From Streptosporangiaceae bacterium (GTDB taxonomy: Bacteria > Actinomycetota > Actinomycetes > Streptosporangiales > Streptosporangiaceae), in assembly GCA_035640715.1 (NCBI GenBank), contig DASQVO010000066.1, positions 1-47,531 of the forward strand: 47,531 nt of DNA, read 5' to 3'. Both the position numbers and the translations under genes were made by a program. This document shows, piece after piece, positions 36,764 through 38,290 of the stretch. Every line of letters begins with the position of its first letter. Within the stretch, counting starts at the first letter, position 1. Below the pieces are notes generated by a model, which saw only the letters and a list, made by a program, of their open reading frames with translations, searched no databases and had not been told where the DNA came from.

Positions 36764-38182
36764 TCAGCTGGCCTGGCTGACCGAGGACATGTTGAAGCCC
36801 TCAATCCGCACGGGCGGCATCGCGACGCGGCTGAAATAGTCGCCCCACTCGCGAGGGAGCGTCGGTACGCTCGCCCCGACCTCGGCGAGCCTGCCCAGCA
36901 TGCCAACCGGGCTCTCGTTGAACCGGAAGTTATTCACTGCGCCCGTGACCTCGCCGTTTTCCACGAGGTAGACCCCATCCCTGGTCAGCCCGGTCAGCAG
37001 CAGCGTCTGCGGGTCGACCTCGCGGATGTACCACAGGCAGGTGAGGAGCAACCCGCGCTCGGTGCGGGCGATCATATCGGCGAGCCCAGGAGGGTCCGGT
37101 TGGTCCGTTTCGAAAACGAGGTTGTCGATGGCGGGAGTCACCGGCAGGCCGGACAACCGGGCCGAATACCGGGTCTGCGTGAGCGCGGCCAGCTCACCGC
37201 GGCGAATCCAGTCCGTCGGCCCCAGCGGCAGCCCGTTGTCGAACACCGACGAGTCCCTGCTCGATGCGTGCGCGATCACGAACGGCGCACAGGCGAGCCC
37301 GCGTGTGGCGGGATCGCTGCGCAGCGTCACGGGCTGGCTGGTGAGCCGTTCCCCGACCCTGGTGCCGCCGCCGGGTTTGCTGAAGACGGTCCGGCCATCG
37401 ATCGCGTCCTTCGCGCCGGCCGACCAGTACAGGTAGGTGAGCAGGTCGGAGGTGGCCGTCGGCGGCAGCAGCGTCTCATACCGCCCAGCCGGCAGGTCGA
37501 TGCGCCGGCGGGCCCACTCCAGCCGCTCGGCCAGCCCCGCGTCGAGCGCCGCCACGTCGACGTCGGCGAAGTCACGGGTCGCCTCGCCCGCCCACGCGGA
37601 CCGGCTGAGGTCGGCCGATTTGGCGTTGAGCTCCACCTTCCCCGATGGCTGGTCATGCCGCAGCCGCAGGCCGGTCGAGCTGCCCAGGAAGGTGCTGGTC
37701 AGCTCGTGTTCGGCGTAGCCGTACAGCTTCCGCCCGGCCGAACCGGCGGCCCGGAGCGTGTCACCAAGCTGGGCGGAAAAGCCTTGCAGCACGCCGATGC
37801 CAGTACTGACCGCCGGATCGTCCCAGCTCGGCTGTCCCGGAGCGGCCATACCAAACGGGGCCGTGGTGTCAGCCCCGATCAGCCCATCGGCATCTTCGGC
37901 CGGTGATCCCTCCGCCGCCTCTTTCTCCGCGGCGCGGACCACGTCCTCCACCTGATCATCCCGGATGCCGGATCTGGAGACCACGCCGGTAGCCGCGCCG
38001 TCGGACCGGCGGTCGATGGCGATGACGGTGAGACGGCGGGACCGGGCGACGCCGTTCGTGGTCAGCGTGTTGCCGGCCCACCGAAGGTTGGCCGTGGAGG
38101 TCTCGTCCGCGATCACGACGCAGCCGTCGCACCTCGCGGCGCTGAGCGCGTGCTCGACGATGTCCTGCGGTCGCTCGCTCAT
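36764..38182 (-). CDS. pmbA: TldE/PmbA-type metallopeptidase partner (TldD-related, lacks HExxxH)
   Basis: 472 aa of TldD/PmbA family architecture. Immediately downstream of tldD. Confidence 0.8.
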   Translation of the reverse strand: MSERPQDIVEHALSAARCDGCVVIADETSTANLRWAGNTLTTNGVARSRRLTVIAIDRRSDGAATGVVSRSGIRDDQVEDVVRAAEKEAAEGSPAEDADGLIGADTTAPFGMAAPGQPSWDDPAVSTGIGVLQGFSAQLGDTLRAAGSAGRKLYGYAEHELTSTFLGSSTGLRLRHDQPSGKVELNAKSADLSRSAWAGEATRDFADVDVAALDAGLAERLEWARRRIDLPAGRYETLLPPTATSDLLTYLYWSAGAKDAIDGRTVFSKPGGGTRVGERLTSQPVTLRSDPATRGLACAPFVIAHASSRDSSVFDNGLPLGPTDWIRRGELAALTQTRYSARLSGLPVTPAIDNLVFETDQPDPPGLADMIARTERGLLLTCLWYIREVDPQTLLLTGLTRDGVYLVENGEVTGAVNNFRFNESPVGMLGRLAEVGASVPTLPREWGDYFSRVAMPPVRIEGFNMSSVSQAS

Positions 38183-38285
38183 GCGGTGTCTCCCGCTCGC
38201 CTCCGGGGCGCTTTGAGGCGCCGCCTTCCCTCGCCGCTCGTACCTCGCTCCTCAGTCCAGGCGGCACCGCGCCCCTGCGGCTCGC

Positions 38286-38290
<5 letters not shown>
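38174..38290 (-). repeat. Stop/start-junction mini-ORF hairpin element, copy B, between tldD and pmbA
   Basis: On the minus strand: ATG (overlapping the tldD TGA), then 36 codons [36 protein letters not shown], then TGA overlapping the pmbA ATG. Interrupted 16-bp stem between 38260-38275 and 38205-38225. Confidence 0.7.

What the first reader, a model, noticed from the sequence alone, without database searches (positions are those of the whole stretch)
38174..38290. Junction element copy B: a 36-codon mini-ORF inserted between tldD and pmbA that keeps ATGA coupling on both sides
On the minus strand, tldD ends ...GAGGAGGCCGCATGA. The same ATG opens [36 protein letters not shown], whose GCATGA stop in turn overlaps the pmbA start (MSERPQD). 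The insertion therefore preserves stop/start translational coupling through an extra cistron. The unit also folds. The 5' arm GGGGCGC-GGTGCCGCC pairs with GGCGGCGCC-(TCAAA)-GCGCCCC. Between copies A and B one stem pair is swapped, G-C to C-G (a compensatory change). A U-G wobble is allowed only in the sense (minus) strand RNA. I do not know of a described repeat family that targets ATGA junctions in this way. Its placement inside a peptide-processing protease pair is intriguing, but could be coincidental given copy A.
Basis: seen in the sequence. Interest (0 to 1): 0.65.

Follow-up and report, generated by a model that had tools for sequence, protein, structure and literature searches.

The report
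MIRU-like mobile repeat between tldD and pmbA
The 107-base insert between tldD and pmbA is one copy of a high-copy, hairpin-forming mobile repeat of soil actinomycetes (order Streptosporangiales). It lands on overlapping stop/start codons and carries its own small open reading frame, so the two genes stay translationally linked, which is the same trick known from mycobacterial MIRU repeats.

Summary
On the minus strand, a 36-codon ORF (38289 to 38179) shares ATGA with the tldD stop and with the pmbA start. The unit folds into a long hairpin, and copy A (19491-19598) differs from it by a compensatory G-C to C-G swap.

It is not special to this protease pair. Three close relatives, and one metagenome contig, have tldD and pmbA overlapping directly by ATGA. 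They lack exactly these 107 nt.

A 20-mer from the loop found 40 copies in 38 loci from Streptosporangiales genomes and MAGs. A covariance model found more. In three soil metagenomes the element is roughly 100-200 times deeper than its flanks.

About a third of copies use their first [A/G]TGA as the stop of a real upstream gene. Most of those end in a second [A/G]TGA that starts the next gene. The stems covary (13 of 25 pairs). G-U pairs outnumber A-C pairs 43 to 11, which favours the sense strand. The loop is nearly invariant.

Variants that shift the frame, and copies coupled on the opposite strand, show that an open frame is conserved but the peptide sequence is not.

Mycobacterial MIRUs are defined by these same properties. 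This Streptosporangiales family itself appears undescribed. What mobilises it is unknown.

The parts
38183..38289 (-). The 107-nt inserted unit (copy B), measured against empty tldD/pmbA junctions in relatives. Because of the terminal direct repeat GCATGAGC, the exact ends can slide by a few nt.
   Evidence: Alignment A1. L039, L040 and L041 have tldD and pmbA overlapping by ATGA with nothing between. A metagenome contig skips exactly 107 nt, 38177 to 38285. The covariance-model hit is 38174-38289 at 120 bits.
38179..38289 (-). Mini-ORF of 36 codons plus TGA. Its ATG shares ATGA with the tldD stop, and its TGA shares ATGA with the pmbA start.
38260..38275 (-). 5' arm of the hairpin (GGGGCGC GGTGCCGCC).
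38226..38259 (-). Purine-rich loop, UGGACUGAGGAGCGAGGUACGAGCGGCGAGGGAA. It is nearly invariant across the family and contains SD-like GAGGAG and GGGAAGG motifs.
   Evidence: Copies found without using the 20-mer differ mainly at GGU to GGA or GGG.
38205..38225 (-). 3' arm of the hairpin (GGCGGCGCC, a TCAAA bulge, GCGCCCC).
38183..38204 (-). Unpaired 3' tail, GGAGGCGAGCGGGAGACACCGC. It carries an SD-like GGGAG 7 nt before the regenerated pmbA ATG.
   Evidence: Sequence. The tail consensus GGAGGCGAGCGGGAnACACnGC is conserved in A2 and A3.
38286..39809 (-). tldD (507 aa). Its own GGAGGAGG SD-like 3' end, which served pmbA in relatives, now serves the mini-ORF.
36764..38182 (-). pmbA (472 aa). It starts MSERPQD, whereas the closest relatives mostly start MSQRPQD; none of the 119 listed has E in that position.
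19491..19598 (-). Copy A, a full unit of 108 nt (one extra G). Its first TGA is the stop codon of the DUF3866 gene.
19467..19490 (-). Hairpin-less short unit (ATGAGCGAGCGGGGAGACAGGGCA) directly after copy A.
   Evidence: The same short form is seen at pafB/pafC in L069, L070, L072, L077, L088 and L098.
21926..21955 (+). Remnant of the element's first 30 nt at the pafB/pafC ATGA junction. It is fused in frame and forms the PafC N-terminus MSEPKGRGAG.
   Evidence: (I5, I10). Full copies occupy this same junction in L071, L080, L089 and L117.

Best explanation
Copy B is a recent insertion of a non-autonomous, high-copy repeat element that is widespread in Streptosporangiales. A unit has five parts in order: a 5' leader [A/G]TGAGCGAGCC; a GC-rich 5' arm of 16-20 nt; a ~34-nt purine-rich loop; a 3' arm with a bulge; and a ~22-nt tail ending GC[A/G]TGA.

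It inserts at or next to [A/G]TGA stop/start overlaps or start codons. It is bounded by direct repeats of 4-7 nt or more that contain the TGA. As a result, the left repeat keeps the upstream gene's stop and offers a start for the element's own ORF. The right repeat stops that ORF and restores the downstream gene's start. The tail adds an SD-like GGGAG at a suitable distance.

A ribosome finishing tldD can therefore translate the 36-codon filler ORF, melt the hairpin, and terminate on top of the pmbA start. The element is tolerated inside operons because it relays the coupling rather than breaking it.

Shown here: family membership, copy number, filled and empty sites, junction and orientation preference, structure with covariation, and an open frame conserved without peptide conservation. 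Inferred: that the mini-ORF is translated and relays coupling; that the hairpin and loop are needed for propagation; the identity of the mobilising enzyme, which is unknown.
For: Family and range. 40 exact loop 20-mers occur in 38 loci from Streptosporangiaceae MAGs, Actinomadura, Spirillospora and Murinocardiopsis. The covariance model gave 53 hits with E of 0.1 or less in those loci plus the window, and 7 more in unrelated metagenome loci, 4 of them strong.

Copy number. Metagenome depth over 38172-38303 is 1100-2650 against about 13 in the flanks (run X1), with similar ratios in X3 and X4. Loose ends pile up at 38173-38179 and 38288-38292, which marks the unit's boundaries.

Recent insertion. 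PmbA relatives at 93, 88 and 86% identity have a direct ATGA overlap. A contig about 94.5% identical lacks exactly 107 nt. None of 80 relatives has copy A after the DUF3866 gene.

Junction preference. 17 of 48 strong hits use their first TGA as the stop of a long, high-GC3, same-strand ORF. Most other copies lie directly upstream of a same-strand gene.

Frame. Indel variants at junctions keep the spacing between the two start codons at 2 mod 3 (95, 104, 107 and 116 nt, and 23 nt for the short form). L037 has a -1 and a +1 change, so a different peptide is read, but the ORF is still 36 codons and still ends in GTGA.

Opposite-strand coupling. L011 and L027 carry an ATGA-coupled ORF of about 36 codons on the other strand, encoding an unrelated peptide.

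Structure. 95.9% of cells are paired against 88.4% in shuffles (0 of 500 shuffles reach it) and 42-51% when partners are slid. 13 of 25 pairs change on both sides. In the stems, G-U/U-G pairs number 43 and A-C/C-A pairs 11.

Contexts are functionally unrelated.
Against: No transposase or other autonomous partner was seen in any 8-kb locus, so mobility is inferred only from filled and empty sites and from copy number.

Translation of the mini-ORF is not shown. The only RNA data are metatranscriptome contigs, which may contain DNA.

One subfamily (L018, L028, L031, L036) has no start or stop at its ends and sits in ordinary intergenic DNA. Junction coupling is therefore a property of some lineages of the family, not all.

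The near-invariance of the loop across genera is not explained by simple neutrality.

Copies within one genome share stem variants, so the covariation counts include inherited changes rather than independent events.
Confidence: 0.72

Rival explanations
1. The hairpin with its invariant purine-rich loop is a host-beneficial RNA module rather than a merely tolerated parasite. It could be an intercistronic mRNA stabiliser or processing site of the REP/BIME type. It could also be a ribosome standby site, whose SD-like loop motifs recruit 30S subunits for the downstream cistron and so tune the ratio of the two proteins.
For: Stems covary while the loop is conserved across genera. G-U outnumbers A-C 43 to 11, which points to structure in the sense-strand RNA. 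The loop holds GAGGAG and GGGAAGG. The sense strand folds at z about -3 and the antisense strand at z = -0.64.
Against: The closest relatives do without it at the same junctions. Decayed, truncated and short forms are common. Some copies face the other way relative to the genes. The sense-strand bias would equally fit a strand-specific single-stranded DNA intermediate. No expression data are available.
Confidence: 0.2
2. The element is mobilised as single-stranded DNA by an HUH/Y1 transposase of the IS200/IS605 or RAYT type. The enzyme would recognise the hairpin on one strand and insert 3' of a [A/G]TGA tetranucleotide. This would make it a REP-like element whose target happens to be the commonest gene overlap.
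For: The pairing signature is strand-specific. Four filled/empty comparisons fit an insertion exactly 3' of [A/G]TGA, with the element itself ending in GC[A/G]TGA (L071, L080, L089; window). The ends are asymmetric (leader and tail) rather than terminal inverted repeats.
Against: No tnpA or RAYT gene was found near any copy, although only 8 kb per locus was examined. In L005 both terminal repeats share the same G-to-T variant (GCATTAG), which looks like a true 7-nt target duplication and is not expected for this transposase family. The unit is much larger than REPs, and no GTAG-type motif is seen.
Confidence: 0.2
3. The 36-aa product is a functional micropeptide gene associated with the TldD/PmbA protease, for example a substrate or a regulator.
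For: An in-frame, SD-preceded ORF is present. The two commonest polymorphisms in unpaired parts (GGU to GGA, AAA to AAG) are synonymous in this frame.
Against: It is absent from the closest tldD-pmbA relatives. There are hundreds of copies in unrelated operons. Compensatory stem changes alter the residues. L037 and L007 read the core in another frame, and L011/L027 code on the other strand. Only 20 small hypothetical proteins match it in 5.8 billion sequences, none with a Pfam domain.
Confidence: 0.03
4. The sequence is a local duplication of the pmbA 5' end, or the remnant of a longer ancestral gene.
For: The unit and pmbA both begin ATGAGCGAGC...CGCAGG.
Against: Near-identical units lie at unrelated loci in many genomes. 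The relatives' empty site is a clean ATGA overlap with no extra coding sequence.
Confidence: 0.01

Closest known systems
Mycobacterial interspersed repetitive units (MIRUs; Supply et al. 1997, as summarised in PMC12548453 and PMC3184786)
   Same: Both are short GC-rich dispersed repeats of high-GC actinomycetes, located between genes of operons. Both carry an internal ORF in the same direction as the flanking genes, with ends that overlap the upstream stop and the downstream start (-4 nt spacing). Both show tetranucleotide direct repeats, filled and empty sites, internal GC-rich inverted repeats, tandem arrays, and long and short length classes.
   Different: This family is found in Streptosporangiales, not Mycobacterium. 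The unit is 107 nt, slightly above the 40-100 bp quoted for MIRUs. It has a long 16-20 bp covarying hairpin around an invariant ~34-nt purine-rich loop. Some of its subfamilies are coupled on the opposite strand or are not coupled at all. Sequence homology to the MIRU consensus could not be tested here.
REP/BIME elements with RAYT transposases
   Same: Both are dispersed, hairpin-forming, often intercistronic, strand-asymmetric, and sometimes clustered. REPs can stabilise upstream mRNA.
   Different: REPs are 21-65 bp, are extragenic and not translated, and carry a conserved 5' tetranucleotide next to the stem. They are linked to a RAYT gene. None of these features was seen here.
MITEs that fuse in frame with genes (Rickettsia RPE, Neisseria Correia, pneumococcal RUP/BOX; review PMC3184786)
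   Same: Both are non-autonomous repeats with open frames. They can extend or enter coding sequences, as the PafC N-terminal remnant and the L017 fusion do here.
   Different: Those elements have terminal inverted repeats at their very ends and do not systematically rebuild stop/start overlaps. Here the ends are an asymmetric leader and tail, and the hairpin is internal.
Short coupling ORFs and engineered bicistronic designs (review PMC12548453)
   Same: A short upstream ORF ending on the start codon of the next gene delivers ribosomes to it and overrides local RNA structure.
   Different: Those are single-locus features or synthetic parts, not a mobile repeat.

Membership tests
MIRU-type intercistronic repeat | Short (about 40-100 bp) GC-rich unit present in many dispersed copies | tested here: met
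   The units are 107 nt (long form) and 23 nt (short form). There are 40 exact-core copies in 38 loci. Metagenome depth is about 100-200 times the flanks. The length is slightly above the quoted range.
MIRU-type intercistronic repeat | Lies between co-oriented genes of operons, in the genes' orientation | tested here: met
   Most of the 48 strong hits are in sense orientation relative to the flanking high-GC3 ORFs, and 5-6 are antisense.
MIRU-type intercistronic repeat | Internal ORF whose ends overlap the upstream stop and the downstream start (-4 nt) | tested here: met
   Met by window copy B and by L003, L006, L029, L030, L033, L089 and others. In 17 of 48 copies the first TGA is the upstream gene's stop.
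MIRU-type intercistronic repeat | Filled and empty sites, with short (tetranucleotide) direct repeats at filled sites | tested here: met
   The tldD/pmbA site is empty in L039-L041 and in a contig from run X4. The pafB/pafC site occurs both filled and empty. The direct repeats are [A/G]TGA, extending to 6-10 nt.
MIRU-type intercistronic repeat | Tandem arrays and length classes | tested here: met
   Tandem units occur in L009 (95-nt period), L019 (107 nt), L007, L020, L024, L033 and L117. A short form of 23 nt also exists.
MIRU-type intercistronic repeat | Sequence similarity to the mycobacterial MIRU consensus | not testable with these tools
MIRU-type intercistronic repeat | Host genus Mycobacterium | tested here: not met
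   All named hits are Streptosporangiales. It works like a MIRU but is not a MIRU in the strict sense.
REP/BIME (RAYT-associated) | 21-65 nt imperfect palindrome with a conserved 5' tetranucleotide; extragenic and untranslated | tested here: not met
   The unit is 107 nt with a 34-nt loop, a leader and a tail, and it is embedded in an ORF.
REP/BIME (RAYT-associated) | A cognate RAYT/Y1 transposase gene in the genome, often flanked by REPs | not tested
   Only 8-kb loci were held. The genes next to copies are housekeeping genes. Whole genomes were not scanned.
MITE | Terminal inverted repeats at the element's ends plus a target-site duplication | tested here: inconclusive
   Direct repeats are present. 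The inverted repeat is internal and is flanked by an asymmetric 11-nt leader and a 22-nt tail. No parent IS is known.
Intrinsic terminator | GC-rich hairpin followed by a U tract | tested here: not met
   The scan found no terminator-like site at the element. The 3' arm is followed by GGAGGCGAGC.
Any Rfam family | Match to a curated covariance model | tested here: not met
   There were no hits at gathering score across the window and none at E of 1 or less over 38050-38420.

The most novel reading that the evidence does not exclude
The covarying hairpin that presents an invariant, SD-like purine-rich loop is an active RNA or single-strand device, not just baggage. It would be a mobile 'translation-coupling cassette' that recruits or relays ribosomes between cistrons and is copied through a strand-specific intermediate by an enzyme that reads the loop. 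If so, this family would expose the long-unknown mobilisation and function of MIRU-type elements. It would also show repeats actively remodelling protein N- and C-termini, as seen for PafC and DUF3866.
Probability: 0.2. Interest if true: 0.75.

Novelty: new member of a known kind. Interest (0 to 1): 0.5.

Why it matters
This is the MIRU principle: a selfish repeat that survives inside operons by rebuilding the stop/start overlap and filling the gap with a throw-away ORF. The finding shows the principle is not a mycobacterial curiosity. It exists as a large, structurally much more informative family in another actinomycete order.

The family has several features that make the old questions about MIRU-type elements experimentally approachable. 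It has covarying stems, an invariant loop and long and short forms. It has subfamilies coupled on either strand, abundant filled and empty sites in public metagenomes, and cultured carriers (Actinomadura, Spirillospora). Those questions are what moves these elements and whether they affect operon expression.

There are practical points too. These units create spurious small ORFs and altered gene ends. Examples are the PafC N-terminus, the DUF3866 stop codon and the Q3E change in PmbA. They break metagenome assemblies at their boundaries, and annotators should mask them.

Tried and rejected
Rfam gave no match, either at gathering score over the whole window or at E of 1 or less over the element.

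BLAST of the unit against plasmid and phage collections gave no match.

A literature search for the loop sequence, its complement and the peptide found 0 papers. Searches for a described repeat in Streptosporangiales, Actinomadura or Nonomuraea found nothing relevant.

A protein search with the element-encoded peptide returned only 20 small hypothetical proteins from metagenomes and Streptosporangiaceae MAGs, and none from Mycobacterium.

The terminator hypothesis was rejected: there is no U tract and no scan hit.

A link to the function of TldD/PmbA was rejected, given the empty sites in relatives and the unrelated contexts.

A local duplication or ancestral longer gene was rejected.

I looked for a transposase between or next to paired copies (L001, L035). 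The genes there are livH/M, livG and murC.

RNA evidence is limited. Only one metatranscriptome run holds related contigs. It shows the repeat in several transcript contexts but cannot show translation or processing.
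Full report
**1. What is at the coordinates**

On the minus strand, tldD (38286-39809; Pfam PmbA_TldD_1st and PmbA_TldD_3rd) ends GAGGAGGCCGCATGA. The ATG of that ATGA (38289) opens a 36-codon [39 protein letters not shown]. Its TGA (38181-38179) overlaps the ATG (38182) of pmbA (36764-38182; PmbA_TldD_3rd).

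The sense RNA folds into a long interrupted hairpin. GGGGCGC-GGUGCCGCC pairs with GGCGGCGCC-(UCAAA)-GCGCCCC around a 34-nt purine-rich loop. The MFE is -62.2 kcal/mol with z = -2.95. Copy A folds the same way (z = -3.39), and the antisense strand does not stand out (z = -0.64).

Copy A (19491-19598, minus) is 96% identical over 100 nt and carries the stated G-C to C-G swap.
- In copy A an extra G puts the second ATG in frame, so 3' coupling is not kept there. A 24-nt hairpin-less short unit follows it.
- A third, partial copy exists. The first 30 nt of the element form the start of pafC at the pafB/pafC ATGA junction (21926-21955, plus strand).

**2. It is an insertion, and a young one**

PmbA homologues at 93, 88 and 86% identity come from contigs with the same gene order. 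In all three, tldD ends at position 3004 and pmbA starts at 3001, a plain ATGA overlap.

In alignment A1 the window differs from them by exactly 107 nt. The empty site reads GGAGGAAGC(C/G)(G/T)CATGAGCCAGCG(A/G)CCGCAGGAC (MSQRPQD); L041 has GGC for AGC (MRQRPQD). The filled site has ATGAGCGAGC at both ends.

A soil-metagenome contig about 94.5% identical to the window also skips exactly 107 nt, from 38177 to 38285. In 80 metagenomic relatives of the DUF3866 gene, the covariance model finds no copy after that gene. In the closest of these, the protein runs on to ...LLQGATMKPFS* before a short spacer and the same DoxX-like gene. Copy A has therefore given DUF3866 a new stop codon.

**3. It is a large family**

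A 20-mer was taken from the loop, so the search was not biased toward junctions. It matched 40 times in 38 loci of the species-representative genome collection. All hits are Streptosporangiales: Streptosporangiaceae MAGs, Actinomadura, Spirillospora, Murinocardiopsis and unnamed soil MAGs.

A covariance model built from 30 copies (R1) recovered these and found further copies that lack the 20-mer. Among them are four full copies at the pafB/pafC junction of unrelated metagenome contigs.

The window itself comes from a soil metagenome. In three such runs, contig depth over 38172-38303 is about two orders of magnitude above the flanks. In X1, for example, it is 1100-2650 against about 13. Loose ends cluster at 38173-38179 and 38288-38292, which marks the ends of the repeat.

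**4. Junction preference**

In 26 of the 42 copies holding the 20-mer (40 in the loci, 2 in the window), an [A/G]TGA lies within about 30-45 nt before the 20-mer, in 20 of them exactly 31 nt before it. Among 48 strong covariance-model hits, 17 use that TGA as the stop codon of a long same-strand ORF with coding-type GC3.

The mini-ORF is mostly 35-36 codons (32 in L009, 39 in L022). It ends in a second [A/G]TGA that starts a long high-GC3 ORF.

The downstream genes are unrelated to one another. They include liv permease and ATPase, isochorismatase, xanthine-dehydrogenase Mo subunit, amidohydrolase, SufS-NifU, biotin carboxylase, MurC and thioesterase. Other junctions are efp-nusB and pafB-pafC. 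The position inside a protease pair is therefore coincidental.

**5. What is conserved**

*Structure.* RNAalifold predicts 25 pairs, 13 of which change on both sides. 95.9% of cells are paired, against 88.4% in column shuffles (0 of 500 reach it) and 42-51% when partners are slid. Copies within one genome share stem variants. The counts therefore include inheritance, but many distinct pair types occur; pair 29-81, for example, is GC 12, CG 11, plus AU, UA, GU and UG.

*Strand.* In the stems, G-U/U-G pairs number 43 and A-C/C-A pairs 11. The structure is thus maintained on the sense strand, as RNA or as one DNA strand.

*Loop.* It is almost invariant, even in copies found without the 20-mer. 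The main variant is GGU to GGA or GGG.

*Frame, not peptide.* Junction copies with indels keep the spacing between the two start codons at 2 mod 3 (95, 104, 107, 116 nt; 23 nt for the short form). L037 has compensating -1 and +1 changes, so it reads the core in another frame, yet it is still 36 codons ending in GTGA. L011 and L027 carry an ATGA-coupled ORF of about 36 codons on the opposite strand, between GGTCATGA repeats. L005 sits antisense between efp and nusB with GCATTAG repeats that give TAATG overlaps.

*Tail.* It supplies an SD-like GGGAG 7 nt before the regenerated start. The mini-ORF inherits the SD (GGAGGAGG) that served pmbA in the empty allele.

**6. Decay and exaptation**

At pafB/pafC, most relatives have a compact [A/G]TGA overlap and a short PafC N-terminus. 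Four have full units (L117 has nearly two). Six have a 23-nt short form (for example ATGAGCCGAGCGGGAGACAGAGC followed by the pafC ATGA), which is still a coupled mini-ORF; its origin by recombination between the GCGAGC direct repeats of the leader and the tail is inferred.

The window has the first 30 nt fused in frame to pafC. In L017 a unit is fused in frame to the downstream gene. The family therefore also remodels protein termini.

**7. Mechanism**

The best-supported account is a non-autonomous mobile repeat that lands on [A/G]TGA overlaps or start codons. It leaves TGA-containing direct repeats. It is tolerated because the left repeat keeps the upstream stop and starts a stop-free filler ORF, and the right repeat terminates that ORF on the downstream start. 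The element brings its own SD.
- *Shown:* family membership, copy number, filled and empty sites, junction and orientation bias, structure, and frame conservation.
- *Inferred:* translation of the filler ORF and its relay role, and the need for the hairpin and loop in propagation.
- *Unknown:* the enzyme. No transposase lies near any copy in the 8-kb loci.

The data do not decide between a true target duplication and insertion 3' of a tetranucleotide by a single-strand (HUH/Y1-type) enzyme. For duplication: L005 has the same variant in both 7-nt repeats. For tetranucleotide insertion: L071, L080, L089 and the window all fit an insertion directly after [A/G]TGA by an element ending GC[A/G]TGA.

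In two comparisons, nucleotides just after the right-hand ATGA differ from the empty relatives in the direction of the element's own sequence. One is pmbA Q3E; the other is L117 against L091. This may reflect conversion by the element or ordinary divergence.

A host-beneficial RNA role (stabiliser, processing site or ribosome standby loop) is not excluded. It would explain the invariant loop.

**8. Comparison with what is known**

MIRUs are described as 40-100 bp repeats of mycobacteria in intergenic regions of polycistronic operons. They have tetranucleotide direct repeats at filled sites, GC-rich internal inverted repeats, and ORFs whose ends overlap the adjacent genes (PMC3184786). They are also described as apparently mobile elements that insert at start codons, so that an internal ORF is coupled to the gene at -4 nt (PMC12548453).

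Every one of these operational features was tested here and met. The host group differs, and sequence homology could not be tested. I therefore file the element as working like a MIRU, and as a new family of that kind rather than a MIRU proper.

It is not in Rfam. The searchable literature contains neither its sequence nor a description of such a repeat in Streptosporangiales. It fails the definitions of REP, canonical MITE and intrinsic terminator.

**9. Verdict**

The element is real, well supported and a nice family, but its principle has been known since 1997. Novelty: new member of a known kind. Interest is moderate (0.5), mainly because its rich structure and abundant polymorphic sites could make the unresolved biology of MIRU-type elements tractable.

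Noticed in passing
L008 ~1388-1425; L023 ~7425-7460; also L012, L015, L034; L082 downstream of DUF3866: A second GC-rich repeat (AGTGAAGGGGGAATGGGGAGGCGGGCGGGGCCCC) is nested inside the 3' arm or bulge of several copies. In L082 it also stands alone. It looks like a different family that inserts into this one.
   Followed up: no
L010 ~330-370, L012, L015: A further insert (GGGCCCGCCGCCGCAGGCGGCCAGGCAAGCAAGG) replaces part of the loop and 3' arm in some copies, so the family is modular or mosaic.
   Followed up: no
window 21926-21955 (+) and L042-L121 pafB/pafC junctions: The PafC N-terminal region varies from 18 to 200 nt among 56 relatives. It includes full units, 23-nt short units and long GC-rich stretches that look like decayed repeats. 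This junction is a hot spot.
   Followed up: yes
window 38174-38182 (pmbA codons 1-3): PmbA starts MSERPQD here, whereas most of the closest relatives start MSQRPQD and none of the 119 listed has E in that position. The Q3E change makes the gene's 5' end identical to the element's leader (ATGAGCGAGC).
   Followed up: partly
window 45278-45321 and 47488-47531: A 44-nt direct repeat at 86% identity, 2.2 kb apart. The second copy runs off the end of the window.
   Followed up: no
window 34736-34771 and 35532-35567: A 36-nt inverted repeat, 92% complementary, with arms 760 nt apart that bracket a 203-aa ORF (34773-35384, minus strand).
   Followed up: no
window 7978-17440: Three paralogous gene blocks (60-83% nucleotide identity, spacings of about 5.0 and 2.9 kb), plus an internal 1606-nt duplication at 9760-12876.
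   Followed up: no
L018, L028, L031, L036 (MFD05521 and MFD05841 MAGs): A subfamily whose leader is CCGAGCGAGCC (no start or stop at its ends), with an extra U before the loop and a UAAAG bulge. It sits in ordinary intergenic DNA, so junction coupling is not universal in the family.
   Followed up: partly
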